Shown: positions 11,677 through 29,327 of the stretch, in pieces
How the letters are laid out: every line of letters starts with the position of its first letter
How positions within the stretch are numbered: the stretch's first letter is position 1
From: Caldisericia bacterium
Lineage (GTDB): Bacteria > Caldisericota > Caldisericia > JAAYUI01
Assembly (NCBI GenBank): GCA_963674785.1
Contig: OY771555.1
Location: 928,001 to 992,000, forward strand
Reading direction: 5' to 3'
DNA length: 64,000 nt
Notes under the pieces: generated by a model
Databases searched by the model: none
The model's input: the letters and a program-made list of their open reading frames with translations, nothing else
What the model was told of the DNA's origin: nothing
Made by a program: the position numbers and the translations under genes

Positions 11677-11679
11677 AAA

Positions 11680-13017: not shown

Positions 13018-13110
13018 ATTGTGCCATATATTAGCCTGTAATTTTACAAAGGGCAAGCAATAAACCAAAATAGAAATTGAAACTTTTACAAATTATGTTA
13101 TAGTCTTCCT

Positions 13111-13851: not shown

Positions 13852-13860
13852 GAGTTATTT

Positions 13861-16458
13861 ATGCGAAAACTGACAATCTTTCTTACTGTTCTCACAATAA
13901 TTTTTTCTTTGGGTGTTACTTATGCGGAGTATGAAAACCCGGATCATCATGGTGTATGGATTGAGGCAGAGACTGCAACATTAATTGGTTGTAAAGAAGC
14001 CTACACCGAAAATTTCCTAGAGTATAATTATTCAGCAAGCAAAGAGGGCTTTTTGAGATTAAATCTCTCACCGACTGATGAGCTTGCATCAAAAAATAGC
14101 ATTTCACTTGAATGGGTTATCAGAGAAAAATATGGAATAGATTTTAGAAGCCTTTGGGTTTCTGCTACTAACTTTGGAAATTCCATGCCAGAAATCTCTT
14201 TTACTGCTGAGAATATTGAAGGTTTTAATATTATTAGCCTTTCAGGTGATGCTGTTATGATAGAGAAGGGCTCATCATATGGGGATTTCACCTGGTTGAA
14301 GTATGAAATTCCTTTCAATCTAAAATATGGTCAGCCTACAACCTATAAACTCACAATGAGTATTCAAACAGACTCTCCTTTTGATATTGGCTTAGATGCG
14401 ATTTATATATCTGACGACAAATATACTCCATATTCAAAGTCCTCTCCACTGGCTGATGCAACATTCCAATATGCGTCAAAAAAACTTCAGATAATTAATC
14501 CCCCACTGACAACTGATTTCACTGACAAACTGATTGTAAAACCTGATGACTTAGTAGATGAAATCTCATCAAAAACACCAGCTGGTGTGAAGCATTCTTT
14601 TGTGATCGGAATAAATGGTGGAGTCGACCTTGGTGATGTCCAGCTTATTAATAATTTTCCTTTGGAAAACGATAACGGAGACAAACTTCCTGAGATCGAT
14701 TTTTCAATTGTTTCTTATATGAGAAAAAGATTTGCATGGACAGGGAGTGTAAAGGATGTTGTGACATCTCCCGAGTATCTTACGCCTGGAAATTCAGCCC
14801 CTATCAGGGAAGGAAAAACAGAGTTCTTTTGGTTGAGTGTTGATATTCCGGTAGATACAAAACCTGGAATCTACAAAACTCGATTACTGATTGATACAGA
14901 GCCTGTGGAAGATTTGATGTTCCCCATAAATATTGAGGTTTTGCCATACAAGGTTGACATTAATGACTTCCCAGAAAAGCTTGAAGTTTCAAAGCTTGGT
15001 TCAGTAAAAGTAACCGACAGAATAATCTTCCAGTCGATTCCTCATACTGATGAGGCGGTTGATAAGAAGATAACGATGGATGAAGCCTGGAAAAGGTGGG
15101 AAGCTGATCTTGAGGAAATCTCATCCCATGGTTTCAATTGCCTTGTTTTCAAACTTCCAACAATCAAAAGTCCAGTCTATTTTCCGGATACTGAAAAATT
15201 GGAAAAGATTTCAACCCTTGCCAAACAAAACAAATTTAAAAGATTGTTTGTAGATATTACAGGGGCAACAGAAGATTGTTTCGAGGTTGAGGGAAGATAC
15301 TTCCTGGAGGAATACCCAAGGGAACTTGAAAAAATTGCAAAAACTGTCTCAGATGCTGGAGTTGAGACTGTTTTGTATTATGATTTCGAAAAATTTGAAA
15401 CTGAGCAAACATCTCTTCTTCACGAAGCCTTTGATTTGATGGAGAGTAAACCTCTCATATCAGCAAGCTATTCTGAAGTAAATACAGGTTTTTCAAAGGT
15501 TGATATTCCACTTTATCCTCATGACGAAATTGACTGGATTAGGGAATCTAAAAAACTTTCAAATGGAAATTGGATTTTCGAACCGAAAGTCCATCATGGT
15601 AGACACAAAGAGATGAGACTCCTTTCTGGGCTTTATTCTCTTTCGTCAAAATCTCCAATCTGTGGAATCAGTATTTTCAATGTTCCATATGGAAATTCGG
15701 AAAATGATTTTGATATCATGCTTGATGCTGTTCGTTATACTCCAGGTGATTACATGATGGTCTACACAAAAGAAGGCTACGAGATGTATCCTTCCTTGAA
15801 ATGGGAATGTTTTTATGAGGGGCTTGTCGACCGGGCTCTGATGGATATTCTCCTTGAAAAAATTGCCAATAACACGAAGAGTGAATCATCAGTTGCTGCG
15901 ATGGAATTTCTGAAATTTATTGCTCCAATGAATGCCACTTTTAAGGATGTTTCAAATTCATTTTCACCTGAGGAATTAAGGCTTATAAGAGATAGATTGA
16001 TCGATTACATAATCTGGCGAGATGGTGGAGAAAAGGTTGAAAACCCATGCGTAAGAAGGGACGTAATTTTCAAAATCGGTTCAAAGATATTTAGATCAAA
16101 CGGCGTTGAATCCGAGATGACAGTTGAACCTGTGATCATTGATGGGTCAACATTTATTCCTGCAAGATATTTGGTTGAACCACTTGGTGGAACTGCATCC
16201 TGGGAAGGTTCAACTCGAACTGTAATCCTTGAAGCACTTGGACACAAAGTTGAATTAGTGATAGATAAGGCTGATGCAAAAAGTGATGGCGAAAATGTCA
16301 CCTTGTCAAAGCCACCAACAATAGTAAATGGAAGAACGCTTATCCCTTTCAGAGCAGCAAGCACATTACTTGGCGCAGAGGTTTCATGGAATGCACAAAC
16401 AAGAGAGGCAATCTGTGATTTTGACCTCGGAAAAAGACTTTTGATGGAGATTGAATGA
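13861..16458 (+). CDS. Secreted protein with glycoside-hydrolase-like (GH123/DUF4091-like) core and C-terminal copper amine oxidase N-terminal (stalk) domain
   Basis: Signal peptide; FWLSVDIPVDTKPGIY and PSLKWECFYEGLVD motifs; C-terminal PVIIDGSTFIPAR / PTIVNGRTLIPFR repeats; GGAG RBS. Confidence 0.65.
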   Translation: MRKLTIFLTVLTIIFSLGVTYAEYENPDHHGVWIEAETATLIGCKEAYTENFLEYNYSASKEGFLRLNLSPTDELASKNSISLEWVIREKYGIDFRSLWVSATNFGNSMPEISFTAENIEGFNIISLSGDAVMIEKGSSYGDFTWLKYEIPFNLKYGQPTTYKLTMSIQTDSPFDIGLDAIYISDDKYTPYSKSSPLADATFQYASKKLQIINPPLTTDFTDKLIVKPDDLVDEISSKTPAGVKHSFVIGINGGVDLGDVQLINNFPLENDNGDKLPEIDFSIVSYMRKRFAWTGSVKDVVTSPEYLTPGNSAPIREGKTEFFWLSVDIPVDTKPGIYKTRLLIDTEPVEDLMFPINIEVLPYKVDINDFPEKLEVSKLGSVKVTDRIIFQSIPHTDEAVDKKITMDEAWKRWEADLEEISSHGFNCLVFKLPTIKSPVYFPDTEKLEKISTLAKQNKFKRLFVDITGATEDCFEVEGRYFLEEYPRELEKIAKTVSDAGVETVLYYDFEKFETEQTSLLHEAFDLMESKPLISASYSEVNTGFSKVDIPLYPHDEIDWIRESKKLSNGNWIFEPKVHHGRHKEMRLLSGLYSLSSKSPICGISIFNVPYGNSENDFDIMLDAVRYTPGDYMMVYTKEGYEMYPSLKWECFYEGLVDRALMDILLEKIANNTKSESSVAAMEFLKFIAPMNATFKDVSNSFSPEELRLIRDRLIDYIIWRDGGEKVENPCVRRDVIFKIGSKIFRSNGVESEMTVEPVIIDGSTFIPARYLVEPLGGTASWEGSTRTVILEALGHKVELVIDKADAKSDGENVTLSKPPTIVNGRTLIPFRAASTLLGAEVSWNAQTREAICDFDLGKRLLMEIE

Positions 16459-19400
16459 AGCAGTTGATAGATGCTGTTTCAGATATAGACACCAATTTAT
16501 CCAGGTATAAATATTCCAAGAAATTAATCGAAAAACTTTCTGATTATTTGCATTTTCCTTCGGCAATGCTTATCGATTCAGAGGGTGATTCAAATATTGT
16601 TGCGGCACACAATATGACTGAGACTCAAAGCAAGGGAATCCTTGACTTGATTTCAAGATCAGGAATATCCTCTATGGTTGCGCACATCAATGAGACTCTT
16701 CCTCCACCATGGGGTGATATTTCTAAGTTTCATTTCAGATCTCTCATATCTATACCACTTAAATATAATAAGAATAGAGTTGGATATATTGTACTTCTCT
16801 CCCCAAAAAAACATGAGATATCAGAAGAAGATTTTGGTTATCTGAATACAATCTCCAGGATTGTATCCAATGGATATTCTGTTAATAAACTAAACTCGTC
16901 AGGTTTTCGAGGGGAGTGTTTTGCAACTATTGATAAAACTTTCCTGGATCAACTGAAGAGTGGTTTTTTGTCATATGATGCTGGTGGGAATATTGAATAT
17001 ATCAATCCGACACTTGTGGCGATGCTCGGGTCTCCTAACCCCGAAGAATCCAAAAAAATAAATTTGTTTACATTCCAGGGTTTGGTGGATGCTGGTTTAT
17101 CTGAATCTTTTAAACGAGCTGTGAAAACTGGAAATAAAGTTTTTTCAACGCATACATACGTTTCAAAGTGGGGCGTTGAGAGCTATTTTCATCTGAATAT
17201 CAACCCTGTAAAGGATGAAAACGGTCAGATTGTAGGTGCTCATGCCTATGTACATGATATTACCGATAAGGTAAAAACAAATTCTCTATTGACGGCGATA
17301 AATCGGACAAAAAAAGACCTTTTTGGGAAAAGAAATCTGAGTCTTGCGGTAAAACAAGTTTCAAAAGAGATTTTTGAGTTCATGGATGTTGATGATATGT
17401 TGATCTGTGAATTTGTTTTAGGGATGGATTATGGTGTTTGCAAGATAAAGTCTGAAATATCTAAAAAAGACCTGCCCAAACTAACAACAAAACAAACTAT
17501 CGATACCCATGAGATTGGTATTGATGAGCAGAGACTTGAACAGCTTATTGCAGGTGAATCGATAACAATTGATTTTTCAAAAGAATATGAAACAACATCA
17601 ATCAGGTCAGATTTTACACAGCTTCATGTGACACCAATCGGTTCACAAAATGAGCTTTTTGGGCTTATTGTGCTTTTCCAAAGAACTGGCAGAAGGATTT
17701 GGTCACAAGAGATTTCAATGCTAATGAGTGTTTATTCTAACTATCTACTCGCTGCGATAACTCAGCAAAAAGATTTGCAGAAACTTGAAACAAAGGTGAT
17801 TCAAAAAGCTGAGGCCACAGCTTTGGATAATTACCAGTTGCTTATTGAGACCTCACCCTTTTCGATTATTTTCTTTTCAGAGTCGGGAAAGATTAATGAG
17901 ATAAATCACGTCGGACATGAGCTTATTTCTGATTTTATTGAATCTGATAAAACGGGTATCGATTATCTTCCAAAAAAATTTCTGAAGATTTTTTCAAAAT
18001 ACTTTGATTCATGTGATGACATCTCAAAAATTGTCTCCAGAACTGAAACCATCACTTTAAGTGATGGTGAAATTAAATACATACGGTTCTACTTGAGGTT
18101 GTTGCCTGGACCAGGGCATAAAAAATATCTTTTGATCATCGAAGATACGACGATGGTTGAAGAGTCATCAAGCCTTTTATCAGATGAGATGAAAAGGGTT
18201 GAGATTGCAAATAGGTCAAAAAGTGAATTTCTGGCAAACATGTCTCATGAGATAAGAACACCATTGAATGCTCTACTTGGGTTCTCAGAGTTAATGCGAA
18301 ATGAGAAGCTGAGCGGAAAAGCATCTGAGTATCTGGAGGCAATATATACTGCAGGTGAAACACTTGACTATCTGACGTCTGATTTGTTAGACATTACAAG
18401 AATCGAAGCAGGTAAGTTGTCAGTTTATCCGGATGCAAATGATCTGAAATTGACAATAGATCAAGTTATTCAAATGCTTCGCTCGAAGATTGAGGAAAAG
18501 AACCTTGAGATTGTAAAGGTTTATCCTGACACTCCAAAAACCTTACACCTCTTTGATAAATCTAGAATCAAACAGGTTTTGATAAATCTGTTGGGTAATG
18601 CGATAAAGTTTACTGATAACGGTAGTATTGTCATAGGGTATAGTATTAGGTTCTCAGATGATTTTGATGATGAGATAATAGTTTTTGTTGATGACTCTGG
18701 AATCGGAATCCCATCTGAGATGAGGGAATCTATTTTCTCTGTATTTACTCAAATCAACAGTTCTGATACAAAAAGACATGCTGGGGCTGGACTTGGTCTT
18801 TCGATTGTCAAAGGAATTGTCGCCTCAATTGACGGGAAAATTCGTATTGTTGAAAAGAACTCTCCAGGAACCAGGTTTGAAATTGACCTCACTCTTGAAA
18901 GAGTAAATGAAAATGATAATGGTGAGCTTATTGCAACAACCGAGGATATATACGATAGAATCAGAAAACCTCTGGAAAATGCTTCATATAGGGTGAGGGT
19001 TGGAGGACTACAATCAGCAACAATTATTGTTATTGAGAGTGGAATCGATGAGATAACAAGGATGCTTACAATCAATCCATCTCTAAAAGTGGTTTCAATT
19101 GGAACAGAGGGCAAAGGTAATGGGTGGATTGGAATCAAAGAAAATTTCTCTTCCACAGAGCTGATTGATGCAATCAAAGAAGTTGCAAGCCAAGAGAAGA
19201 ACGAACAAGGTGATGTTGGTATTCTCAATGGATTAAAAATCCTGGTTGTTGAGGATAATCCCTTGAATATCAAATTGATAACAGAAATTCTCAATAATTA
19301 TGGTAGTGAGGTAACAGTCTCCAAAACAGGTGTTAGTGGTGTAAGCACAGCATCAGAAGGAGCTTTCGATGTTTGTCTGATGGATATACAGATGCCTGAC

Positions 19401-19922
19401 ATCTCTGGACTCGATGCAACCATGCAGATTCGATACAACGAAGAAAAGTTCGGTAAAAGAAGATTGCCAATAATTGCCCTTACTGCATATGCGTCAGTCA
19501 CAGATAGAGACAGATGCCTTACAGCAGGGATGGATGGGTATGTTTCAAAACCCATAAAAATCCCAGAGCTCATAAAAGCCGTTGAGGTTGCAATGGGTAA
19601 GAAAAAAACTTCAATCATTGAGAGACTATCTGAACAACTTCTGATTGCACCATTGAAACTGAAAGATATTCTTGAGGAATATGTCACAAAGAGTCTAGAG
19701 GGGATTATCGAGATAAAAGACTTTGTAGAGGCTGGCGAGTATAAGAAAGCCAGTGATGTTTGCCATAGACTCAAGGGAATGGCTTATTTTGAGCCACTTC
19801 TCTCAAAGATCATCAAACTCAGTGGGTCAATCAAGGCAAACAGCGATGAAGATATTTCTGAGCAGTTGACTGACCTTGAATGTGAATTCAATCGAATCCA
19901 AGAAGAGCTTGAAAAAGTATAG
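16455..19922 (+). CDS. Cytoplasmic hybrid sensor histidine kinase (GAF-PAS-GAF-PAS-HisKA-HATPase-REC-HPt)
   Basis: FLANMSHEIRTPLN, QVLINLLGNAIKFT, DSGIGI, GAGLGLSI, receiver LVVEDN...LMDIQMP and HPt CHRLKG. Confidence 0.92.
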   Translation: MKQLIDAVSDIDTNLSRYKYSKKLIEKLSDYLHFPSAMLIDSEGDSNIVAAHNMTETQSKGILDLISRSGISSMVAHINETLPPPWGDISKFHFRSLISIPLKYNKNRVGYIVLLSPKKHEISEEDFGYLNTISRIVSNGYSVNKLNSSGFRGECFATIDKTFLDQLKSGFLSYDAGGNIEYINPTLVAMLGSPNPEESKKINLFTFQGLVDAGLSESFKRAVKTGNKVFSTHTYVSKWGVESYFHLNINPVKDENGQIVGAHAYVHDITDKVKTNSLLTAINRTKKDLFGKRNLSLAVKQVSKEIFEFMDVDDMLICEFVLGMDYGVCKIKSEISKKDLPKLTTKQTIDTHEIGIDEQRLEQLIAGESITIDFSKEYETTSIRSDFTQLHVTPIGSQNELFGLIVLFQRTGRRIWSQEISMLMSVYSNYLLAAITQQKDLQKLETKVIQKAEATALDNYQLLIETSPFSIIFFSESGKINEINHVGHELISDFIESDKTGIDYLPKKFLKIFSKYFDSCDDISKIVSRTETITLSDGEIKYIRFYLRLLPGPGHKKYLLIIEDTTMVEESSSLLSDEMKRVEIANRSKSEFLANMSHEIRTPLNALLGFSELMRNEKLSGKASEYLEAIYTAGETLDYLTSDLLDITRIEAGKLSVYPDANDLKLTIDQVIQMLRSKIEEKNLEIVKVYPDTPKTLHLFDKSRIKQVLINLLGNAIKFTDNGSIVIGYSIRFSDDFDDEIIVFVDDSGIGIPSEMRESIFSVFTQINSSDTKRHAGAGLGLSIVKGIVASIDGKIRIVEKNSPGTRFEIDLTLERVNENDNGELIATTEDIYDRIRKPLENASYRVRVGGLQSATIIVIESGIDEITRMLTINPSLKVVSIGTEGKGNGWIGIKENFSSTELIDAIKEVASQEKNEQGDVGILNGLKILVVEDNPLNIKLITEILNNYGSEVTVSKTGVSGVSTASEGAFDVCLMDIQMPDISGLDATMQIRYNEEKFGKRRLPIIALTAYASVTDRDRCLTAGMDGYVSKPIKIPELIKAVEVAMGKKKTSIIERLSEQLLIAPLKLKDILEEYVTKSLEGIIEIKDFVEAGEYKKASDVCHRLKGMAYFEPLLSKIIKLSGSIKANSDEDISEQLTDLECEFNRIQEELEKV

Positions 19923-19929
19923 TTTGCAG

Positions 19930-21294
19930 TTATCCTTCAATTACTGCATAATTCCTGTTTTCTATGAGCCCAACACGCTTTGAAATCTCAACATATTTTT
20001 TGAGTAGTTGTGCAATCTCAGATTTTGTTTTTATACAAAAAGGTTCTGAGATTGCACCTTTTTTCTCAAATGCTGTTGCTGCACATCCTCCTCCACATAT
20101 AGGTACAATTGGACAATTTGAATCTATACATTTCTTCACTCGAATAAAACCACTTTCCAACCAATGTGTTTCACCATTATCTTTGTAAAAACCGTTTGAG
20201 TTCACATTTCCAACCGAATGACTTTCATTGCCAACAAAACTCCAGCATCTACCTATGTTTCCATCAGGATCAATAACGTAGTTATGGAATGAATGAGAGC
20301 TACACGGGGAAGTTATAAAGGTTTGTAAATACCTTTTTTTGAGTTCAAAAATATCTTTTATGAAACCATATTTATCCAATTCTTCTAGCCATTTTGTCAT
20401 AAAGCCATAGCGTTTTGGTTGTGGAATACAATTACATTCATATGAGGTGCTATCACCAGTCAATGACTGTATGAATGATGGGTGAATAGAAATTTTTTCA
20501 TTTTCCAGAAGCCCGTGTTGCCTTAAATCTGAAATCACTTCAGGAAGTGAGTCAGCATTTTTTGTGTCGAGATTAATCCTCAGTGCAATATGAGTTTTAG
20601 GTATCGTTTCCAATGCAGCTTTGATCCCCTCTATTATCAAGTCATATGAAGGTTTTCCACTTATGTATGTTCTTTGTTTGTCGTGGAATCTTCTCGAACC
20701 ATGTAAAGTCACTTGAATGTTTTTTAGAGGAAGATGTTTAAAATAATGTATATTACTTGTTAACAGTGATCCATTTGTAACCATCATCATATTTGTATTG
20801 GTGTTTGGATGATTTTTTGAGATGTATTCGAAAGTTTCTGTAAAAAAATGTGGTTGTAGTAAAGGTTCTCCACCATAACACCCAAGCAAAACCTCATAAA
20901 TATCATATTTTGCTATTCGTGATGAAATAAACCGCTTTAGATTTTCAAATGTACCCGTTGTCATCACTTTAGAATTTCTATGTTCATAGCAATATGGACA
21001 TGCAAAGTTGCAATTTAGTGTTGGAGCAAGAAGTATTCCCATTCTTTTTCCATCTTTTCCCCAGATATTTCTGAAGAAACCTAAAATCTTATCATCATTA
21101 GTGCTTTTATCATCAACCATAAAGCACGTTTTCAAAAGGTCTTTTGCAAGTGATGAGCTTTCTTCAATCAACTCAGGTTTTTCTATTATCCATGAGGGGA
21201 AGACTGCAATTGACCTTGTTATTGATGAAAGTGCGACATATTCATTCTCATTTATTTTTTCATAAAAAACATACTTAGAGAGGCGGAGACTCAT
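19930..21294 (-). CDS. Radical SAM/SPASM domain peptide maturase with N-terminal RRE-like region
   Basis: CNFACPYC (CxxxCxxC), GGEPLL, VTNG; 7-Cys SPASM C-x13-G-x4-C ... C-x4-C-x5-C-x3-C-x15-C; ~85-aa N-terminal extension. Confidence 0.92.
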   Translation of the reverse strand: MSLRLSKYVFYEKINENEYVALSSITRSIAVFPSWIIEKPELIEESSSLAKDLLKTCFMVDDKSTNDDKILGFFRNIWGKDGKRMGILLAPTLNCNFACPYCYEHRNSKVMTTGTFENLKRFISSRIAKYDIYEVLLGCYGGEPLLQPHFFTETFEYISKNHPNTNTNMMMVTNGSLLTSNIHYFKHLPLKNIQVTLHGSRRFHDKQRTYISGKPSYDLIIEGIKAALETIPKTHIALRINLDTKNADSLPEVISDLRQHGLLENEKISIHPSFIQSLTGDSTSYECNCIPQPKRYGFMTKWLEELDKYGFIKDIFELKKRYLQTFITSPCSSHSFHNYVIDPDGNIGRCWSFVGNESHSVGNVNSNGFYKDNGETHWLESGFIRVKKCIDSNCPIVPICGGGCAATAFEKKGAISEPFCIKTKSEIAQLLKKYVEISKRVGLIENRNYAVIEG

Positions 21295-21308
21295 TGATTC
21301 TTCCTTTT

Positions 21309-21512
21309 TTATTCAGGTTCAGAAATTGGACAGCAATATGTTGCCTGACAGTATATATCACATAGAGAAACGATGTTCATAATATTCGGATCAAATGTAA
21401 CTTTATCTATCCAGCAGACTGATTTTGTTGGCACGATCTCCATTTTTGATAAATCAACTCTATTGCTGTCAATAACTATTTTTATTGAATTTTCATTATG
21501 TTGATAAGTCAT
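21309..21512 (-). CDS. Putative RiPP precursor 4 (67 aa; core ...VSLCDIYCQATYCCPISEPE)
   Basis: AGGAGA RBS; paralogous leader YQHNENS...K.VCWID; 14 nt upstream of the rSAM gene. Confidence 0.85.
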   Translation of the reverse strand: MTYQHNENSIKIVIDSNRVDLSKMEIVPTKSVCWIDKVTFDPNIMNIVSLCDIYCQATYCCPISEPE

Positions 21513-21523
21513 TAAACTTTCTC

Positions 21524-21727
21524 CTATGTTGCTTCATTGTAGCCTTCACAAAACGTTTGAGCACAAAGTGGCTGACAACATGTAACAATATTCATATATC
21601 TTGGATCGTAGTTATTTGTATCTATCCAACAGACTGTTTTTGTAGGTACTTCTTGCATAGTTTGTGGATTGACTAGATTTGAGTTAATTGTAATTGCCAA
21701 AGAATTCTCATCTTTTATATATCCCAT
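21524..21727 (-). CDS. Putative RiPP precursor 3 (67 aa; core ...VTCCQPLCAQTFCEGYNEAT)
   Basis: AAGGAGG RBS; shared leader motifs; Cys-rich C-terminus. Confidence 0.85.
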   Translation of the reverse strand: MGYIKDENSLAITINSNLVNPQTMQEVPTKTVCWIDTNNYDPRYMNIVTCCQPLCAQTFCEGYNEAT

Positions 21728-21736
21728 ATATCCTCC

Positions 21737-21946
21737 TTAACACATGTCATTGTAATTGCCAGAACAGTATGTTGAATGACAATATGTGGCAACGCAGGAA
21801 ACAACCGGAAGATGCATATTCGCATCATAATTTGAGAAATCGAGCCAACATACTTTTAAAATCGGAATTTCTTCCATTGTGTTTGGGTTAAATTGGTTCG
21901 GATTGATTGTAACACGGATAGAATTTTCATTATGCTGATATGACAC
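21737..21946 (-). CDS. Putative RiPP precursor 2 (69 aa; core ...VVSCVATYCHSTYCSGNYNDMC)
   Basis: AGGAGGTGA RBS; shared leader motifs; Cys every fifth residue. Confidence 0.85.
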   Translation of the reverse strand: MSYQHNENSIRVTINPNQFNPNTMEEIPILKVCWLDFSNYDANMHLPVVSCVATYCHSTYCSGNYNDMC

Positions 21947-21957
21947 TCATTCACCTC

Positions 21958-22164
21958 CTAACTGATGTTTCCCTTTGAGTCACAAAAACCAATGTTGCAG
22001 AAATTACTTTGACAGTATCCAACAACTTCCATAGTATTTTGATCAAAATTACTCTTATCTATCCAAACGACGATTTTATTGTTATCAATCTCCATGATTC
22101 CAGTATCAACTAATGTTGAGTTGATACCAATTCTTAAAGAGTCTTGATCATGTATATACGGCAT
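21958..22164 (-). CDS. Putative RiPP precursor 1 (68 aa; core ...VVGYCQSNFCNIGFCDSKGNIS)
   Basis: Start reassigned to ATG 22164 (GAAGGAG RBS), which puts it in register with its three paralogues. Confidence 0.85.
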   Translation of the reverse strand: MPYIHDQDSLRIGINSTLVDTGIMEIDNNKIVVWIDKSNFDQNTMEVVGYCQSNFCNIGFCDSKGNIS

Positions 22165-22264
22165 AAAGCACTCCTTCCATAAGTTTCCACCCCTCACTAA
22201 TTCACAATATAGAGGGGCTGTGACAGTGTACAATTAAACTTCCTTAACTGAAATAGCGACATTC

Positions 22265-22283
22265 TTAGCATTAATATTGCTAA
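22265..22283. promoter_or_regulatory. Palindromic operator-like site upstream of the peptide cluster
   Basis: TTAGCA-ttaatat-TGCTAA, next to a minus-strand TGa-TATATT -10-like box. Confidence 0.4.
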
Positions 22284-22421
22284 TATATCATTTCTTAATG
22301 TAAGTTTATATTATTTCCAGAATTATGAATGACTTCTGTTAGATAGGTATAAATTGATAAAATCCATGATTATGACAAAAACAAAGTTGACCAACCCCCA
22401 TTTTTTTGATAAAAAATAAGC

Positions 22422-23492
22422 ATGAGAAAATTCTTAGTTCCAGTTTTACTTCTTGTTGTTTTTGTTGCTTGTTCATGTGGGAAACCAATGCCAAACCAAA
22501 AACATCTCGACTCGTTTTCGATGCTTCCTGATTTTGTTGTCACAAAGTCAAGTGAATCGGGAAACAGTGTGACACTGTATTCCTTTGATATGGAGGCAAT
22601 CAGGGCAAACATCCAGATTGATAAAGAAAAACCACATACAGGTCAGGTCAATAATCTTGGAATAGCTGTAAGCAGAAACTATGAGAAAAATGCGGAACTT
22701 GGAATACTCGATCTTGAAAAAATGAAATATATAGCGACTTGCCCATATTGGAATGTCCAAGCATTTACACCTGCTGGTGGGCTTTTGGAAAAAATATCTG
22801 ATGCCGGATTTATTGAAGAGATCATTGGTGATGGGTATCTTCTGACGAAGGATTTTGAAGACAACATCACAGCCGAACTTGCGCCAGTTAACTGTTTTGT
22901 TGATGATACAATTGTTCAGGTCACAACAACAGCAAAACTTCAAAAAGAGGCAGTAACTTTGATGCTAATGGAGGAAGGCAACAGAGTTGATAAATTCCCC
23001 GCAATTTCTGAGATATTAAAATTGATGCCAGAATACCAAGCAGTTTGCCTTGTTTTCAGTTTTGATAGATACAGTGTGCTTGCTGAAGATGGTAGCATTC
23101 CTGGCTTCTTTGATGCTGCTGAGCAGTATGACATGATTCCGAGATTTGAAACATGGGGAAGACCTGATTCATACAGGATGGGTGCGGTCGGATCGTCCGT
23201 TGTTGATGGGGTAGAGCATTCAACAATTGTGCTTCTCTATGATTCTGAAAAGTCGGCGAAAGATGACAAACTGAATGTTGATAAAGCATTGCTTTCTGTT
23301 CCAAGCATGGTTGATGGAAATCCTTGGATGAAACACATGAACTTTGGGAAACCAATCGTCAAGGTTCAAAAAAATGCGATACTAATCGATTTTGATATTG
23401 AGAATCGAAAAAAAGAAGATGGACTCTTTTCAATGCAGATGTTGAAGTTTATGGATAAAACTGGAGATTGGGGGGTATTTTGGAGAAAATAA
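22422..23492 (+). CDS. Lipoprotein, hypothetical
   Basis: Lipobox VACSC; promoter TTGACC-N17-TAAAAA-N6-ATG. Confidence 0.75.
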   Translation: MRKFLVPVLLLVVFVACSCGKPMPNQKHLDSFSMLPDFVVTKSSESGNSVTLYSFDMEAIRANIQIDKEKPHTGQVNNLGIAVSRNYEKNAELGILDLEKMKYIATCPYWNVQAFTPAGGLLEKISDAGFIEEIIGDGYLLTKDFEDNITAELAPVNCFVDDTIVQVTTTAKLQKEAVTLMLMEEGNRVDKFPAISEILKLMPEYQAVCLVFSFDRYSVLAEDGSIPGFFDAAEQYDMIPRFETWGRPDSYRMGAVGSSVVDGVEHSTIVLLYDSEKSAKDDKLNVDKALLSVPSMVDGNPWMKHMNFGKPIVKVQKNAILIDFDIENRKKEDGLFSMQMLKFMDKTGDWGVFWRK

Positions 23493-24712
23493 CAAAGTCA
23501 ATTCTTGCTCTTGTACTTGTTTGTTTGCTTAGTGTTTCCTGTGGCGGGGACGGAGTAGACGAAGTTGTCAAGATTTCTGAGCCAAATCCGACAAACCCAA
23601 TACAGCAGGCTTTATCAAAAATGCCTGTTTCAATCATGAATCTTCCTGGAAGAGATCTCAAAATGAAAGCCTTTATCTTCAACAATATCGAATTAACCGT
23701 AAGGAGTAGAAACCTTGCAAATTATATGTTGGTGAATGAAAACGAGCAGATTTCATGGCTTTTTAAGATGGGTCATAATGTCACGTCGTCAATGAATTCA
23801 GTTATCGATTTTGGCAAATGGCATCATACAGATTTTATGAATCAAACAACCTGGAAGATGAATATCTTTGACTACACAAGAGACCATGAGGTTGTTTTCT
23901 CAAAATCTGATAAAGAAGAATTCCTCACCTGGATGCTCAGACACAATTTTGAAGTATACAAATCTGAGCCAGCATTGACCCTGAAACCAGGTAGTGTTTA
24001 TCATAGGGATGCTTATGTTTTTGGTGCCGGTATTGTTCAGGGTGAAGATGGGGCAACATTCATTTGTCGTGAGCTTCCAACAGATGGTACAGTTGATGAT
24101 GCGTTGGCAATTTATGAAGGTACGATGGGTTCCCTTCTTTCTGATCCAGAGATTTATGAAATTTCATCAAGGATTCCAGAGGGTGCTTTCTCTTCAATGA
24201 TCTGTAAACTTGATACATCATATGCAAAACACAATCAGGTCACAACTGCCGATACAACAGGTTTTTCTGGTGTTCCTTTAACTGATGAACAGACCGTTTG
24301 GGTTTCAGTTTATGGAAGACCAAAGGAATTGACTTGGTTTTCAGCTTCACACATCACAAAAGATGGTCATCACGGACTTCTTTGGGAGTTCCAGTATGAA
24401 ACACCTGAGGCAGCAGAGGCTGACTTGACTCCACTTACTGATGCAATTACTGAGGCAAAGGGCAGATTCACAGAAAAGAATTGGTGGGATGAAGACCTTC
24501 ATCTTGAATCCCCTGAGATTTCTGTTGAGGACAATATCATATCAATCTGGTCAGAGTGGATAATCCCCAGGGATGAAAAAAAGAAGATTGAATCTGGTAT
24601 CATGACCGACGAAGAGAAGGAAACTCTCTGGTTTGAATATGTCCGAAGCATCTTTGATCTGTTTGACAAATTCGAACGCCAGGATTACGGTCCACTTTGG
24701 CAGGGGTATTGA
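23480..24712 (+). CDS. Lipoprotein, distant paralogue of the upstream gene
   Basis: Lipobox LSVSC; probable TTG start after a G-rich RBS; shared C-terminal motifs. Confidence 0.7.
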   Translation: MEKITKSILALVLVCLLSVSCGGDGVDEVVKISEPNPTNPIQQALSKMPVSIMNLPGRDLKMKAFIFNNIELTVRSRNLANYMLVNENEQISWLFKMGHNVTSSMNSVIDFGKWHHTDFMNQTTWKMNIFDYTRDHEVVFSKSDKEEFLTWMLRHNFEVYKSEPALTLKPGSVYHRDAYVFGAGIVQGEDGATFICRELPTDGTVDDALAIYEGTMGSLLSDPEIYEISSRIPEGAFSSMICKLDTSYAKHNQVTTADTTGFSGVPLTDEQTVWVSVYGRPKELTWFSASHITKDGHHGLLWEFQYETPEAAEADLTPLTDAITEAKGRFTEKNWWDEDLHLESPEISVEDNIISIWSEWIIPRDEKKKIESGIMTDEEKETLWFEYVRSIFDLFDKFERQDYGPLWQGY

Positions 24713-24713
24713 G

Positions 24714-25772
24714 TTAGATATTTTCAGGTTTCAATTCAAATTGAATTTGATACGTCATTAACTTTATGTTTTGTGATGCCTTAAGAGCGTACTTGAGCTT
24801 TTCTGAATAGTCGCCTGCAATGATTAATCCCTCAACTTGGTTGTCTGATGATGCAAGATTCTCAGATACCCAGCCAATGTATCTTTGAATCTGACCAAGT
24901 GTTTCATCAGATGTTTTGTCTTTTTTAAGTTCGATGACCAACCACCTATCTTCGGTTTTATGGGATGCAAGAATGTCTATTCTACCTATATTTCCAGCAA
25001 TATATTCAACTCCAACGGTTGCACCATCTTCCTTGTGAATCTCCCATTGCCCAAATTCTTTCAGGTTATCCCAATTGCCGGCTAAGAAATCTTGTAGATG
25101 TTTTTCTAATTCAAAGTTGCCGTTGTTTGTGAGAGAACTGCTGGAATAGCCAGAATTTGTAAAATCAACTTCATTTGATTTTTGTATTTCTTCTCGGTAG
25201 ATAAATTCAAACAAGGCGTTGAGAGTCCATTTGTCAATTACCAGTTCTTCTGAAAGAGATCCAAGCATCAGGTTTACCAAAATATGTTTCAATAACACTG
25301 TATCTCCACCATCTGGCCATAAATCAAACTCTTTTATAACGTATTCAGCTGAAGCACTCCATATGCCATACTTATCTGGTTCCGTTATTTGTAGGATGGT
25401 GGTCAATACGTTTTTGTCTAGTCCCTTTATTTTTTGTTTTTCATTTGGGAATGCATATTCAAACCTATCGAACCGATTTTTTGATCTATCAAGAAACCCT
25501 TTGAATACTTGCCGAAGCTCATATATATCTTTTGTTATTTCCTTGGCTAGTTTGTCATAACTCTTCAATTGCTTGTTGTTTTCAAACTTCAAGAATTCAC
25601 AAAAAACTTTTCTGTCAAGTTTTCTTATATTTTCATATTGGAATATTGGTTGGTACTTTGCGATTACTTCATCTTTTGAGGAAACAACCATTTGAAACTC
25701 AGCATCTTTTTTTGCTCTATCTAGTGCTTCTTTGAGTGCAATAATTGCATCATCAAAAGCTTCTTTTGCCAT
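24714..25772 (-). CDS. Endonuclease with C-terminal NucS/DUF91-like PD-(D/E)xK domain
   Basis: LEKHLQDFL...VEY...GRIDILA...VIELKK...LGQIQRY; TAATG coupling to cinA. Confidence 0.75.
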   Translation of the reverse strand: MAKEAFDDAIIALKEALDRAKKDAEFQMVVSSKDEVIAKYQPIFQYENIRKLDRKVFCEFLKFENNKQLKSYDKLAKEITKDIYELRQVFKGFLDRSKNRFDRFEYAFPNEKQKIKGLDKNVLTTILQITEPDKYGIWSASAEYVIKEFDLWPDGGDTVLLKHILVNLMLGSLSEELVIDKWTLNALFEFIYREEIQKSNEVDFTNSGYSSSSLTNNGNFELEKHLQDFLAGNWDNLKEFGQWEIHKEDGATVGVEYIAGNIGRIDILASHKTEDRWLVIELKKDKTSDETLGQIQRYIGWVSENLASSDNQVEGLIIAGDYSEKLKYALKASQNIKLMTYQIQFELKPENI

Positions 25773-26992
25773 TACTTCCCCCTAAGCTGTTTTACCGCTT
25801 CCCACAAAACTCTCATCAAAGTTTTTATCCTGACATCATCCCTTGTCCCGGTGAAGACTTCCCTGATTACAGATACACCATTCGGTGTGGAAATTCCCAT
25901 ATAGACAAGTCCAACTGGTTTTTCTGCTGTCCCACCTGTCGGACCTGCGATTCCAGTTGTCGATATCGTTACATCAGTTTTAAAGACCCTTTTTGCTCCC
26001 TGTGCCATCTCCTTTGCAACCTGTGATGAAACAGCTCCAAAACTAGAAAGTGATTCTTCAGATACACCGAGAATGTCCATTTTTGCTTGGTTTGAATACG
26101 TTACGGCCGAACCCATAAACACATCAGAAGCCCCGGAAATATCTGTCAGCGTTTTTGCAATCAGTCCACCTGTGCATGACTCTGCTGTTGCAATTGACCA
26201 CCCTTTTTCTCTCAGGATTTTAAGTAAGGTTTCTGGTGCAGGATGGTCGAAAATATGATCCTTCAAAAGTCTTTTGATTTGACCGATAGAGTTACTCGAT
26301 TTCTCATCAAACTCTTTTTCATCACTTGCTAATGTTGAAACTCTCAATCTTATCTGCCCAAGCCCAGCGTATGGGGCAACTGAGATTGGATTTTCTGTAT
26401 TGAGGATGTTCCCCAGAATGTCTGCCATTTTTGATTCAGGTAATCCAAGAACATAAAAATCTCTATGGAATTCTTTTGTATTGGTTTCAAGTGTTGGTAG
26501 AACGTGGTTATTCCACATCGGCTCAAGCTCTCTTGGTGGGCCAGGAAGAAGGATTATTATCTTTCTGTCTTTTTCGATCTTTATTCCTGGTGCTGTGCCA
26601 AAAGAGTTTTGAAGGATAATCGAGTTCTTTGGGATGTGTGCCTGATTGAGATTTGATTTTGGCATCTCAATTCCTCTATTTTTAAAAAAATCTTTAATGG
26701 TGTGTTCAACCTTGTCCGAAAAAACCATCGGTAAGGAGAGGAATTCAGCGACCGCAGATTTGGTCAAATCATCAGGTGTTGGGCCAAGTCCACCCGTCAA
26801 AATAATCAGTTCAGATTCATCAAATAGAACCCTCAGGACTTTTTGAATTTCTGCCTTTAGATCTGGAACAACAGCAGTCATTTTTGGAGAAAAGCCGATT
26901 GAGACCAGAGAATTTACTAACCACTTGGTAGTAGTATTGTTGATGCTACCAGACAAAACCTCGTTACCTACTGCGATAATCGAAAATCTCAT
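25772..26992 (-). CDS. cinA: Competence/damage-inducible protein CinA (MoCF-biosynthesis-like + PncC NMN deamidase)
   Basis: AVGNEVLSG, TGGLGPTPDD, LPGPPRE, AESCTGG and TGIAGPTGG. Confidence 0.95.
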   Translation of the reverse strand: MRFSIIAVGNEVLSGSINNTTTKWLVNSLVSIGFSPKMTAVVPDLKAEIQKVLRVLFDESELIILTGGLGPTPDDLTKSAVAEFLSLPMVFSDKVEHTIKDFFKNRGIEMPKSNLNQAHIPKNSIILQNSFGTAPGIKIEKDRKIIILLPGPPRELEPMWNNHVLPTLETNTKEFHRDFYVLGLPESKMADILGNILNTENPISVAPYAGLGQIRLRVSTLASDEKEFDEKSSNSIGQIKRLLKDHIFDHPAPETLLKILREKGWSIATAESCTGGLIAKTLTDISGASDVFMGSAVTYSNQAKMDILGVSEESLSSFGAVSSQVAKEMAQGAKRVFKTDVTISTTGIAGPTGGTAEKPVGLVYMGISTPNGVSVIREVFTGTRDDVRIKTLMRVLWEAVKQLRGK

Positions 26993-27026
26993 AGGTTTAT
27001 TGTGGATTTGAAATCTAGTATGTCAA

Positions 27027-27851
27027 TTATTCTGATAACTGTTTTCTATGTTTCTCAATGTCAAAAGGTTCGAGATATGCAAAATCAGCTCTCCATTCGT
27101 TTTCTTCAAAAACGAAATCCGCTTTAACAATTGCTTTTTGTTCTGATGTTTCTGGGTCACCGATTGCGATCGTAGCAAATACAAATCCCTTCATCGTTTT
27201 ATCATCATCGATGTATTCTGGTTCTGTAGAAAATGCTGGTCCAATCATGATTACATACTCTTCCTCACGGGGAGTTTTCCCGGAAACGGTTTTTATTGCA
27301 AGCTGTTTGTATTCAGCAATTGTATACTCTTCATGAATCCTTTTACTCGATTTGTCCCAAAGTTTTTCGGTATTTGCATCAAGCATCCAGTCAAAGAAAT
27401 CGAGCGACTCACCTCTGAGTTTGTCTGTTATATAGAAGCCCTTATAGTCCTCAGATTGTTGCTCAGCAACAACATTTGCAACCCACCACTGTTCATCATC
27501 AAGGATCATCGGCAATCTGAAGTCTTGTTCCTGGTCGTCAATTGTCAAAAGTCCGTAAACTGAGGCAGTCTCTCCATCTCGAAAAACTCTGCTATTGTAA
27601 ACATCAAAATGGATTCCAGTATCTGAAATAGAAACATTTGTTTCAGGGTTGATCATATAATCATTGAAAACATCCATGTTCATGTTTTCTCGCATTGCAG
27701 GGGTAAGATAGCTATAGGCCGCTTCGAACTCTCCTTGTTCAATAAGACTCAGATATTCCTTTGCCCTTTGTGACACAATATCTGTGCCACAAGAAACGAA
27801 TAAAACCAATCCCAACAATAACGATACTATCCCTAAAACTCTTTTACTCAT
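27027..27851 (-). CDS. Lipoprotein with two NTF2-like repeats
   Basis: Lipobox FVSC; repeats ending DDEQWWV and EENEWRA. Confidence 0.65.
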   Translation of the reverse strand: MSKRVLGIVSLLLGLVLFVSCGTDIVSQRAKEYLSLIEQGEFEAAYSYLTPAMRENMNMDVFNDYMINPETNVSISDTGIHFDVYNSRVFRDGETASVYGLLTIDDQEQDFRLPMILDDEQWWVANVVAEQQSEDYKGFYITDKLRGESLDFFDWMLDANTEKLWDKSSKRIHEEYTIAEYKQLAIKTVSGKTPREEEYVIMIGPAFSTEPEYIDDDKTMKGFVFATIAIGDPETSEQKAIVKADFVFEENEWRADFAYLEPFDIEKHRKQLSE

Positions 27852-27928
27852 GACATTAAGAATATTTTGAATTCCAAATGATTCAACTGCTATAATAGGT
27901 GTCAGAAATAAATGAAAAGAGGAAAATC

Positions 27929-28930: not shown

Positions 28931-28950
28931 AGGTATTTGTTAGAATACAT

Positions 28951-28976
28951 AAATCCCCACAATTTTGTGGGGATTT
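28951..28976. terminator. Bidirectional intrinsic terminator
   Basis: AAATCCCCACAA-tt-TTGTGGGGATTT. Confidence 0.75.
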
Positions 28977-28977
28977 A

Positions 28978-29250: not shown

Positions 29251-29327
29251 ACTTTCCTCCGTTATCAAACTATACTAACTATCAGAACGCTTCAGATAGT
29301 TGATAATGGATGCATCCATCAAATCTA

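What the first reader, a model, noticed from the sequence alone, without database searches (positions are those of the whole stretch)
19930..22164. Candidate new RiPP system: four Cys-rich precursor paralogues plus a radical SAM/SPASM maturase
Seen: four co-oriented 67-69 aa ORFs, each with a strong SD and 9-14 nt gaps, lead directly into a 454-aa radical SAM enzyme with CxxxCxxC, a 7-Cys SPASM domain and an N-terminal RRE-sized extension. All four share a leader M.Y.(H/K)(N/D)(E/Q)(N/D)S+.+.I(N/D)...M(E/Q)....K.V(C/V)W(I/L)D...(F/Y)D...M followed by divergent ~20-aa Cys-rich cores. Established: a conserved leader, variable core and adjacent rSAM/SPASM enzyme are the hallmarks of RiPP clusters (sactipeptides, ranthipeptides such as PapB/CteB products, triceptides). 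Inference: one enzyme macrocyclises four different cores. I do not recognise the leader as SCIFF, Nif11, NHLP or double-Gly type. The locus looks somewhat more AT-rich than dnaB by spot counts.
Basis: partly seen in the sequence, partly recalled or inferred. Interest (0 to 1): 0.9.

Follow-up and report, generated by a model that had tools for sequence, protein, structure and literature searches.

The report
Cys-rich peptide array with radical-SAM maturase
Four small sister genes for cysteine-rich peptides sit in front of one iron-sulfur radical enzyme in a Caldisericota genome, forming a compact, previously undescribed family of the well-known kind of pathway that makes cross-linked peptide natural products.

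Summary
On the minus strand, four 67-69 aa paralogues (22164-21309), each with its own ribosome-binding site and 9-14 nt gaps, precede a 454-aa radical SAM/SPASM enzyme (21294-19930). The enzyme has CxxxCxxC, seven SPASM cysteines and an N-terminal domain that superposes on that of CteB.

The peptides match no NCBIfam or Pfam model. The enzyme falls far below every curated cut-off; the best is CefB, 177 of 600 bits. An exhaustive profile search of 1.84 billion proteins found 12 hits. Genome scans place the family in one family of Caldisericota.

The close enzyme clade occurs only in the genomes that carry a short peptide. The genome holds a second, single-peptide locus that is conserved in relatives. 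The four-peptide operon is a 2.5-kb indel absent from two congeners at the same site.

The cores share C-x3/4-C-x4-C, with Thr-Phe/Tyr before the third Cys. No protease or exporter lies nearby.

Best reading: a leader-guided, thioether-type RiPP system, a new family of a known kind. The chemistry, leader removal and biological role are untested. A sequence look-up in earlier scan notes found nothing. Similar undescribed Cys-rich cassettes were noted on other genomes. Interest is moderate, not 0.9.

The parts
21958..22164 (-). Precursor 1 (68 aa): about 47-aa leader, core YCQSNFCNIGFCDSKGNIS (C-x4-C-x4-C). It is the most divergent copy.
   Evidence: The AAGGAG site lies 6 nt before the ATG at 22164. 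The profile E-value in the own genome is 1e-34.
21737..21946 (-). Precursor 2 (69 aa, GTG start): core CVATYCHSTYCSGNYNDMC.
   Evidence: An orthologue, P0011, is known from an unnamed contig (leader 34 of 46, core 18 of 23 identical). A 183-base contig with 1 difference occurs in a salt-marsh run.
21524..21727 (-). Precursor 3 (67 aa): core CCQPLCAQTFCEGYNEAT.
   Evidence: The orthologue P0012 is 66% identical overall.
21309..21512 (-). Precursor 4 (67 aa): core LCDIYCQATYCCPISEPE.
   Evidence: The orthologue P0010 has leader 36 of 45 and core 12 of 22 identical.
19930..21294 (-). Radical SAM/SPASM peptide maturase, 454 aa.
   Evidence: Pfam Radical_SAM scores 57.9 bits against a cut-off of 29.5. 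The best NCBIfam hit is CefB at 176.7 of 600. The AF2 model has pLDDT 91.9. CteB 5wgg_A gives Z 27.1 with 397 residues aligned.
21055..21294 (-). N-terminal domain of the maturase (residues 1 to about 80): three strands then helices, RRE-like.
   Evidence: DSSP of the model gives E9-15, E18-23, E28-33, H34-38, H48-55 and H66-79. The alignments to CteB (model 6-438 to chain 1-450) and TigE (1-449) include this domain. anSME and ChlB align only from residue 79-84.
20989..21012 (-). CNFACPYC: the CxxxCxxC ligands of the radical SAM [4Fe-4S] cluster (C95, C99, C102).
   Evidence: invariant in 90 sequences.
20035..20304 (-). SPASM domain with seven cysteines (C331, C350, C389, C394, C400, C404, C420).
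   Evidence: TIGR04085 matches residues 331-420 at 52.8 bits against a cut-off of 27.
22165..22421 (.). 257-bp intergenic region between precursor 1 and the divergent lipoprotein-like gene. It presumably holds the operon's promoter, which was not identified.
   Evidence: The consensus scan found no sigma-70-like site on the minus strand here. Rfam gave no match.
19896..22403 (.). 2.5-kb indel relative to congeners. It comprises exactly the four precursors, the maturase and the upstream spacer.
   Evidence: In G003 the homology with the window stops at 19895 and resumes at 22404, with 111 bp between. In G001 the two flanking genes are about 530 bp apart. GC is 33.5%.

Best explanation
This is a five-gene operon of the RiPP type (ribosomally made, post-translationally modified peptide). 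The four peptides are substrates of the one radical SAM/SPASM enzyme.

Proposed mechanism, all of it inferred:
- The conserved first 45-48 residues act as a leader. Their hallmarks are M-x-Y-x-H-N/D near the start, V-V/C-W-I/M-D in the middle and F-D-P-N-x-M at the end. The leader docks on the enzyme's N-terminal RRE-like domain.
- The variable C-terminal 18-22 residues are the core. Their skeleton is C-x3/4-C-x4-C, and the third Cys is usually preceded by Thr-Phe/Tyr.
- The enzyme abstracts a hydrogen atom from a nearby residue and joins a cysteine sulfur to that carbon, losing 2 Da per link. This would give one to three small thioether rings per peptide, as in sactipeptides and ranthipeptides.
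- The short tail after the last Cys (6-9 residues) favours local rings within or between the pentads over a long nested hairpin.

Shown here: the genes, the enzyme's cluster-binding motifs and fold, the leader/core conservation pattern, and the strict peptide-enzyme co-occurrence.

Not shown: leader binding, the thioether chemistry, the acceptor residues, leader removal, export, and any bioactivity.

The operon is an accessory 2.5-kb indel in this species. A second locus with a single peptide and a conserved core (C-x-C-P-N-Y-R-C-W-x-N) is the commoner form in the lineage.
For: 1. Architecture. There are four SD-led paralogues 9-14 nt apart, followed by the rSAM.

2. Enzyme features. It has CxxxCxxC and seven SPASM cysteines. 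The confident model (pLDDT 91.9) matches CteB best and over its full length, N-terminal domain included (Foldseek E 1.9e-19; VIA Z 27.1, rmsd 4.4, 397 aligned). CteB is also the best sequence match among solved structures (E 1.6e-17).

3. Family scores. The highest NCBIfam scores are all maturases paired with Cys-rich peptides: CefB 176.7, TIGR04463 165.9, Clo7bot 151.8, geopeptide 149.5, FlmE/OhkG 125.5, PapB 114.3. Cyclophane synthases score lower: YhhB 63 and FxsB 49.5.

4. Leader conserved, core variable. The mean top-residue frequency is 0.59 over 45 leader columns and 0.40 over 22 core columns in 16 sequences. The window's paralogues share 16-23 of 45 leader positions and 3-8 of 22 core positions. 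Within the core, C-x3/4-C-x4-C occurs in 11 of 11 peptides of this type, and C-x2-T-[FY]-C in 10 of 11.

5. Co-occurrence. In the 11 genomes of the family, an rSAM of this clade (660 bits or more) is found in G000 (twice), G003, G004, G008 and G010. These are exactly the genomes with short peptides, and the two genes are adjacent in all six loci. The other 6 genomes reach at most 201 bits.

6. Tree. The nine enzymes linked to this peptide family form one clade on a long stem (SH-aLRT 100, quick tree) apart from 33 nearest outsiders.

7. Distant homologues. They sit beside other multi-copy Cys-rich peptide arrays: six copies in L023 and five in L026.
Against: - No chemistry has been observed.
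- No peptidase or exporter lies within about 10 kb, and the genome has no C39 peptidase domain (completeness 92%). Leader removal and secretion therefore have no visible machinery.
- The fold of the catalytic core does not tell a thioether synthase from other SPASM enzymes. anSME scores Z 27.0 and the cyclophane synthase ChlB Z 25.9, against 27.1 for CteB.
- The core keeps aromatic residues next to the cysteines, which would also suit aromatic cross-links.
- Asp/Glu acceptors of the PapB type are not conserved. The cores of orthologues P0011 and P0012 have none.
- No promoter or terminator was found by the consensus scans.
Confidence: 0.6

Rival explanations
1. The peptides are the enzyme's substrates, but the chemistry differs. 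Options are carbon-carbon cyclophane links from the conserved Phe/Tyr/Trp (triceptide-like, Omega-X-X), another radical modification such as epimerisation, or Cys oxidation of the anSME type. The cysteines would then serve for disulfides or metal binding.
For: An aromatic residue precedes the second and third Cys in most cores; C-x3-[FYW]-C occurs in 11 of 11. The single-copy type has an invariant W-x-N after Cys, in 5 of 5. ChlB, named a multiple cyclophane synthase in the reference list of PMC12912966 (passages seen), matches the catalytic core at Z 25.9 and anSME at Z 27.0, nearly as well as CteB.
Against: The residue two places after the aromatic would carry the cyclophane link, yet it varies freely and is Gly in P0005 (Y-C-G), which has no beta carbon. 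The cysteines, not those positions, are the invariant elements. Cyclophane families score lowest among the peptide maturases (YhhB 63 of 445, FxsB 49.5 of 370). ChlB and anSME lack the N-terminal domain that aligns with CteB and TigE.
Confidence: 0.15
2. The products are not exported natural products. They would be intracellular modified small proteins, SCIFF-like or CrpA-like, that keep their 'leader', with a housekeeping, redox, metal or signalling role.
For: No protease or transporter lies in or near either locus, and the genome has no C39 peptidase. The single-copy core is almost unchanged across two genera. It is recorded on dozens of Caldisericia contigs as 'hypothetical protein'; one cluster member is on 59 contigs. 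A leader-like module also occurs in tandem at the start of 228-400 aa proteins in genomes without the enzyme. SPASM enzymes that cross-link whole Cys-rich proteins are known: CrpC/CrpA (PMC13692751, abstract and outline seen).
Against: Four diverged cores behind one enzyme, an accessory 2.5-kb indel absent from two congeners at the same site, and copy number that varies from 1 to 4 between contigs. These are typical of diversifying, competition-type peptides. The precursor alone gives no confident fold (pLDDT 49).
Confidence: 0.15
3. The small ORFs are unrelated to the enzyme, for example small metal-binding proteins that merely lie upstream, and the rSAM acts on something else.
For: Only that no interaction or modification has been shown.
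Against: Adjacency and the same orientation hold in all six loci examined across three genera' worth of divergence. Presence and absence are strictly shared in 11 genomes. The enzyme has a CteB-like peptide-maturase architecture.
Confidence: 0.04

Closest known systems
CefA/CefB 'Cys-every-fifth' system (NCBIfam NF038108 / NF038107), with its neighbours TIGR04463 and Clo7bot (TIGR04333/TIGR04334). As far as I could see these are defined by comparative genomics only.
   Same: CefB is the best-scoring family for the enzyme (176.7 bits, E 7e-52). The cores have cysteines five residues apart: C-x4-C-x4-C in 8 of 11 and C-x3-C-x4-C in 3 of 11. Several tandem precursors precede one enzyme, as in the distant homologues L023 and L026.
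   Different: The enzyme is far below the cut-offs: 176.7 of 600, 165.9 of 525 and 151.8 of 600. The peptides do not match CefA or Clo7bot peptide models even at E 1, although those models give weak hits on other fetched peptides. The leader is 45-48 residues with its own motifs, whereas the fetched homologues have short M-E/K-W-I-x-K-P type leaders. Only three cysteines are in register. The enzymes form their own clade.
SCIFF peptides with CteB/Tte1186 (thioether-forming rSAM/SPASM; PDB 5wgg, 5why)
   Same: CteB is the closest solved structure by sequence and fold, N-terminal domain included. Both are two-component peptide-plus-enzyme loci with no protease or exporter. The single-copy form is conserved within a lineage.
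   Different: TIGR03974 scores 88.5 of 425 and the peptides give no SCIFF hit. The core pattern differs and the leader is much longer. Here the peptide is amplified to four diverged copies.
[quoted passage not shown]
   Same: A periodic Cys motif is handled repeatedly by one leader-dependent rSAM/SPASM enzyme. PapB is the characterised thioether family with the highest score (114.3 bits).
   Different: The score is 114.3 of 340. Asp/Glu at Cys+4 is not conserved and is absent from the cores of P0011 and P0012. The conserved residues are instead Thr and Phe/Tyr just before the third Cys.
CrpC/CrpA, a SPASM rSAM that installs ranthionine links on a Cys-rich protein (PMC13692751, abstract and outline seen)
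   Same: An rSAM/SPASM with a predicted RRE acts on an adjacent Cys-rich gene product. It is a precedent for substrates that are not classical short leader-core peptides.
   Different: It is an archaeal system with a large protein substrate. No sequence comparison was made here.

Membership tests
rSAM/SPASM peptide maturase with RRE (CteB-like architecture) | CxxxCxxC radical SAM cluster motif | tested here: met
   CNFACPYC lies at residues 95-102 and is invariant in 90 sequences. Pfam Radical_SAM scores 57.9 against 29.5.
rSAM/SPASM peptide maturase with RRE (CteB-like architecture) | C-terminal SPASM domain with seven Cys for two auxiliary clusters | tested here: met
   TIGR04085 scores 52.8 against 27. 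C331, C350, C389, C394, C400, C404 and C420 are conserved. Cluster content itself was not tested.
rSAM/SPASM peptide maturase with RRE (CteB-like architecture) | N-terminal peptide-recognition (RRE-like, winged-helix) domain | tested here: met
   Model residues 6-438 align to CteB chain residues 1-450 (Z 27.1), and 1-449 to TigE. The strand-strand-strand-helix order is seen in DSSP. That the CteB domain is an RRE is recalled, not from a call. The Pfam PqqD model gave no hit. Binding was not tested.
RiPP system (general) | Conserved leader, variable core | tested here: met
   Top-residue frequency is 0.59 in the leader and 0.40 in the core. Paralogues share 36-51% of leader and 14-36% of core positions.
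RiPP system (general) | Precursor and maturase co-occur and are adjacent | tested here: met
   All six loci in 5 genomes are adjacent. The 6 genomes without peptides lack the enzyme clade.
RiPP system (general) | Post-translational modification of the core; leader removal | not testable with these tools
   No peptidase or exporter is nearby and the genome has no C39 domain.
CefA/CefB (Cys-every-fifth) | Enzyme reaches the NF038107 cut-off (600 bits) | tested here: not met
   The score is 176.7 bits.
CefA/CefB (Cys-every-fifth) | Peptide matches NF038108 (cut-off 30 bits) | tested here: not met
   None of the four peptides hit at E up to 1. The model is in the library.
CefA/CefB (Cys-every-fifth) | Cys at every fifth residue in the core | tested here: inconclusive
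   C-x4-C-x4-C occurs in 8 of 11 and C-x3-C-x4-C in 3 of 11, with only three Cys in register. The number of repeats typical of CefA is recalled, not checked.
TIGR04463 and Clo7bot maturases | Enzyme reaches the cut-off (525 / 600 bits) | tested here: not met
   The scores are 165.9 and 151.8 bits.
SCIFF / ScfB (TIGR03974) | Enzyme reaches 425 bits; peptide matches the SCIFF model | tested here: not met
   The enzyme scores 88.5 bits and the peptides give no hit.
PapB ranthipeptide family (NF047865) | [quoted passage not shown] | tested here: not met
   The enzyme scores 114.3 bits. The cores of P0011 and P0012 have no Asp or Glu.
Triceptide (three-residue cyclophane) synthases: YhhB, FxsB, GrrM | Enzyme reaches the family cut-off; Omega-X-X motifs with a conserved third residue | tested here: not met
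   YhhB scores 63 of 445 and FxsB 49.5 of 370. The third residue is variable and includes Gly. This lowers membership, not the possibility of aromatic cross-links.
Sactipeptide / ranthipeptide (by product) | Cys S to C-alpha, or to C-beta/gamma, thioether in the mature peptide | not testable with these tools
   This needs MS/MS, alkylation and NMR or desulfurisation.

The most novel reading that the evidence does not exclude
This would be a Caldisericota-only RiPP family with three unusual features.

- The 45-residue leader would be a recruited copy of a protein module. The same module stands in tandem at the start of 228-400 aa proteins in sister genomes that lack the enzyme.
- The enzyme would make a cross-link not yet described, with Cys sulfur joined to the conserved Thr or Phe/Tyr inside C-x2-T-[FY]-C pentads.
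- The conserved single-copy form (C-P-N-Y-R-C-W-x-N, directly downstream of mraY in this genus) would be a housekeeping or signalling peptide. The four-copy array would be a recently acquired, diversifying offshoot of it.
Probability: 0.15. Interest if true: 0.7.

Novelty: new variant of a known kind. Interest (0 to 1): 0.45.

Why it matters
Caldisericota has almost no cultured members, and I could find no described natural products from it. Only two texts, a preprint and its published version, hold both 'Caldiseric...' and 'radical SAM', and both concern lipids.

The locus is small and self-contained at 2.4 kb. One enzyme faces four natural substrates with a shared skeleton. That makes it an easy heterologous-expression target for asking three questions:
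- which cross-link the enzyme makes;
- how a very long leader is read by an RRE-like domain;
- how tolerant the enzyme is of core variation.

If the chemistry turns out to be ordinary sactionine or ranthionine, this is one more family in a crowded field. The scan itself has already logged several undescribed Cys-rich rSAM cassettes on other genomes.

Tried and rejected
- **Complex prediction.** Complex prediction of the enzyme (alignment A5) with precursor 3 (alignment A7) gave no verdict: median score 0.19 against a mark of 0.32, and the controls were not run. It is not used either way.
- **Precursor fold.** AlphaFold2 of the precursor alone gave pLDDT 49.2, too low to say anything firm about folding.
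- **Locus search with the peptide alignment.** The enzyme alignment was used instead.
- **Metagenome scan.** With the enzyme clade it returned no close relative.
- **Expression.** No RNA holder is listed for the locus, so expression is untested.
- **RNA and mobility signals.** Rfam gave no match in 19500-22800. No tRNA lies in 10000-30000. No direct or inverted repeats bracket the indel convincingly.
- **Promoter and terminator scan.** It found nothing on the minus strand upstream of precursor 1 and no terminator after the enzyme gene.
- **Long-form protein.** The ESM Atlas look-up gave only a weak bactofilin lead (score 0.81). Pfam gave nothing.
- **Literature.**
  - The search for 'Cys-every-fifth/CefA/CefB' was swamped by cephalosporin names. 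I cannot say whether CefA/B is in print.
  - 'OhkG/FlmE/Clo7bot/geopeptide' returned nothing relevant.
  - PMC10288494 (passages seen) does not mention Caldiseric..., TIGR04463, NF038107 or Clo7bot in its main text. Its supplements list about 15,000 RiPP rSAM enzymes and could not be opened, so they may contain this enzyme.
- **Readings considered and rejected.**
  - A PapB-type Cys-Asp/Glu link: the acceptors are not conserved.
  - A long nested sactipeptide hairpin: the tail after the last Cys is only 6-9 residues.
  - A recent duplication of the genome's second locus: the two enzymes are only 32% identical.
Full report
**Observation.** On the minus strand of the window lie four small ORFs: 22164-21958 (68 aa), 21946-21737 (69 aa, GTG start), 21727-21524 (67 aa) and 21512-21309 (67 aa). 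A 454-aa ORF follows at 21294-19930. The gaps are 11, 9, 11 and 14 nt, and each holds an AGGAGG-like site 5-7 nt before the start codon, read directly. The ORF listing extends the first ORF to a TTG at 22233. The alignment with the other copies, and the AAGGAG site before the ATG at 22164, show that 22164 is the real start.

The four peptides align with 12 invariant columns. The first 45 or so residues are shared; the last 20 or so are cysteine-rich and diverge. Between paralogues the leader is 16-23 of 45 identical and the core 3-8 of 22. The locus has 33.7% GC against 37.8% for the window, and 3.9% of 618 equal-sized windows are as low.

**The enzyme.** Pfam finds Radical_SAM and Fer4_12. 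In NCBIfam only the generic SPASM domain model passes its cut-off (52.8 against 27). Every named maturase family fails by a wide margin:
- CefB 176.7 of 600
- TIGR04463 165.9 of 525
- Clo7bot 151.8 of 600
- geopeptide 149.5 of 400
- FlmE/OhkG 125.5 of 500
- PapB 114.3 of 340
- SCIFF 88.5 of 425
- YhhB 63 of 445

In a 90-sequence alignment C95, C99 and C102 (CNFACPYC) are invariant. So are the SPASM cysteines C350, C389, C394, C400, C404 and C420, and C331 is nearly so.

The AlphaFold2 model is confident, with pLDDT 91.9 and pTM 0.90. Foldseek ranks CteB first (5why_B, E 1.9e-19), then TigE, ChlB, anSME and SuiB. In the VIA re-alignment CteB 5wgg_A gives Z 27.1, rmsd 4.4 and 397 residues aligned, with model 6-438 on chain 1-450. 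TigE aligns over 1-449. anSME (Z 27.0) and ChlB (Z 25.9) align only from residue 79-84. The N-terminal 80 residues (three strands then helices) therefore correspond to the N-terminal domain of CteB. From memory, that domain is its RiPP recognition element. By sequence, CteB is also the best solved relative (E 1.6e-17).

**The peptides are a new, very small family.** None of the four matches any NCBIfam or Pfam model at a meaningful level. The CefA and Clo7bot peptide models are in the library, because they gave weak hits on other peptides I fetched.

A word-indexed search of 5.8 billion proteins with an eight-sequence profile found 12 peptides. An exhaustive HMMER pass over 1.84 billion cluster representatives with a 14-sequence profile found 12 proteins at E up to 0.001:
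- five members of the query alignment;
- three further short peptides (P0133, P0137, P0139);
- two long proteins of 228 and 400 aa that begin with two leader-like modules (P0134, P0135);
- two repeat proteins (P0136, P0138) that share only a short V-x-W-[LV]-D stretch. I set these two aside as not homologous over the peptide.

**Distribution and linkage.** The window's own genome is 2.23 Mb in one contig. It holds a second locus at about 2,138,163-2,139,752. There a 63-aa peptide with the same leader and the core CGCPNYRCWQNGSTME precedes a 460-aa enzyme that is 32% identical to the window's.

Across the 93 genomes scanned in the phylum, the leader profile hits 8, all in one family: 7 of its 10 other members, and 0 of 82 elsewhere (the earlier sample was 8 of 61). 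Four of those genomes (G003, G004, G008, G010) carry the single-peptide type next to the enzyme. Three (G005, G007, G009) carry only the long form.

A scan of the family's 11 genomes with the enzyme-clade profile finds matches of 660 bits or more only in G000 (twice), G003, G004, G008 and G010. The rest reach at most 201 bits. Peptide and enzyme clade thus share presence and absence exactly.

In one-genome-per-species contigs of 185,579 species, only two loci are close: a Caldisericales MAG and a Caldisericota MAG, both at 36% identity, E 4e-92 and 1e-90. The next is at 1e-47. NCBI records call the single-type peptide 'hypothetical protein' from Caldisericia or Caldisericales bacteria. This confirms the taxon named in an earlier scan note.

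A quick maximum-likelihood tree puts the nine linked enzymes in one clade (SH-aLRT 100, stem 0.74) apart from 33 nearest outsiders. The enzymes of the single-peptide type form a subclade (SH-aLRT 97) (the careful search did not finish).

**Two core types.** The first is a single-copy type with a nearly fixed core, C-x2-Y-R-C-W-x-N in 5 of 5. The second is the window's type, with C-x3/4-C-x4-C in 11 of 11, C-x2-T-[FY]-C in 10 of 11, and usually Gly plus an aromatic residue shortly after the last Cys.

Orthologues of window peptides 4, 2 and 3 (P0010, P0011, P0012) each occur on one contig of 1,012 bases, presumably the same one. They keep the cysteines while other core residues change: leader 32-36 of 45-46 identical, core 12-18 of 22-23. 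Other contigs seem to carry one or two peptides of this type with an enzyme of the clade. This is inferred from equal contig lengths only.

**Genomic setting.** The operon lies between a convergent hybrid histidine kinase and a divergent pair of lipoprotein-like genes with no Pfam match. The kinase's stop codon ends at 19922, 7 bases from the enzyme's stop. No peptidase or transporter lies within about 10 kb, and the genome has no C39 peptidase domain.

In congener G003 the kinase and lipoprotein genes are adjacent with 111 bp between them. Homology to the window stops at 19895 and resumes at 22404. In G001 the two genes are about 530 bp apart. The operon is thus a 2.5-kb indel. It is absent from three congeners as a locus, and from the same site in two. 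I found no flanking repeats, tRNA or mobility genes.

Short contigs with no or one difference from parts of the enzyme gene (0 and 1 differences) occur in two microbial-mat runs, which gave identical results and may be one data set. One with 1 difference, covering precursor 2, occurs in a salt-marsh run.

**Mechanism.** The best-supported reading is a leader-guided rSAM/SPASM maturation of four different cores by one enzyme, most likely forming thioether rings. The grounds are these:
- the CteB-like architecture, including the N-terminal domain;
- the fact that the highest-scoring families are all maturases paired with Cys-rich peptides;
- the invariance of the cysteines within otherwise variable cores;
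- the strict co-inheritance of peptide and enzyme.

The short tail after the last Cys argues for local rings. The conserved Thr-Phe/Tyr before the third Cys is the most obvious candidate acceptor region. PapB-type Asp/Glu acceptors are not conserved (PapB motif from PMC9413430).

The fold alone cannot exclude cyclophane or other chemistry. The absence of a protease and exporter leaves open a SCIFF-like or CrpA-like intracellular fate (PMC13692751).

**Comparison and novelty.** The system works like sactipeptide/ranthipeptide and SCIFF systems. It is nearest to the NCBIfam-defined CefB/TIGR04463/Clo7bot supergroup, but it fails every curated membership test for both enzyme and peptide. Distant homologues of the enzyme also sit behind arrays of five or six Cys-rich peptides with short, different leaders. 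The multi-precursor layout is therefore ordinary for this kind.

What is new is the peptide family with its long leader, the enzyme clade, and the restriction to one Caldisericota family. Only two texts, a preprint and its published version, hold both 'Caldiseric...' and 'radical SAM', and both are about lipids. A sequence look-up in earlier scan notes found nothing. A word look-up shows several other undescribed Cys-rich rSAM cassettes on other genomes.

**Verdict.** This is a real, tidy, undescribed family of a known kind. Interest is moderate at 0.45.

Noticed in passing
outside the window: own genome C1:2138163-2139752 (locus L005:64-1665, minus strand): A second locus of the same family. 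A 63-aa peptide (core CGCPNYRCWQNGSTME) precedes a 460-aa rSAM that is 32% identical to the window's, directly downstream of an mraY-like gene on the same strand. G003 has the same arrangement. This single-copy type is the form conserved across genera.
   Followed up: yes
L013:946-1650 (-), L014:931-1650 (-), L015:1501-2187 (+); proteins P0134, P0135: Proteins of 228-400 aa in a sister genus begin with two tandem copies of the leader-like module, followed by GD-x-YG-type repeats. They lie next to a glutamine synthetase gene, and these genomes lack the enzyme clade. They have no Pfam match, and the Atlas gave only a weak bactofilin lead. The peptide leader may derive from such a module, or the reverse.
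   Followed up: partly
window 19896-22403: The whole operon is a 2.5-kb indel relative to two congeners, in which the flanking kinase and lipoprotein genes are 111 bp and about 530 bp apart. No repeats, tRNA or mobility gene mark the junctions.
   Followed up: yes
window 20090-20329, 20431-20699, 21732-21913: Short contigs with 0-1 differences from these stretches occur in microbial-mat and salt-marsh metagenome runs of other studies. In the mat runs the neighbouring lipoprotein gene is only about 80% identical (76 differences in 394). It may come from a relative, or the cassette may move between strains.
   Followed up: partly
proteins P0136 (532 aa) and P0138 (904 aa): Two long repeat proteins carry many copies of a V-x-W-[LV]-D-(K/Q)-x-x-F/x-D stretch that resembles the centre of the leader. 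This is probably convergence or a shared short strand motif.
   Followed up: no
window 22422-23492 and 23468-24712 (+): Two consecutive lipoprotein-like genes, each with an N-terminal hydrophobic stretch ending in Cys, have no Pfam family. Their ends overlap by 25 bases. They are conserved in congeners at 39-65% identity.
   Followed up: partly
window 19922-19930: The hybrid histidine kinase (16455-19922, +) and the rSAM gene (minus strand) converge with only 7 bases between their stop codons. No terminator-like hairpin was found.
   Followed up: no
window 13861-16458 (+) and 29328-32327 (-): Two large proteins (865 and 999 aa) end in a copper amine oxidase N-terminal-like domain (PF07833). 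The second also has PQQ/beta-propeller repeats. They are likely cell-surface proteins.
   Followed up: no
window 24714-25772 (-): A 352-aa protein has a C-terminal PD-(D/E)XK nuclease domain (YhcG_C, NucS_C-like).
   Followed up: no
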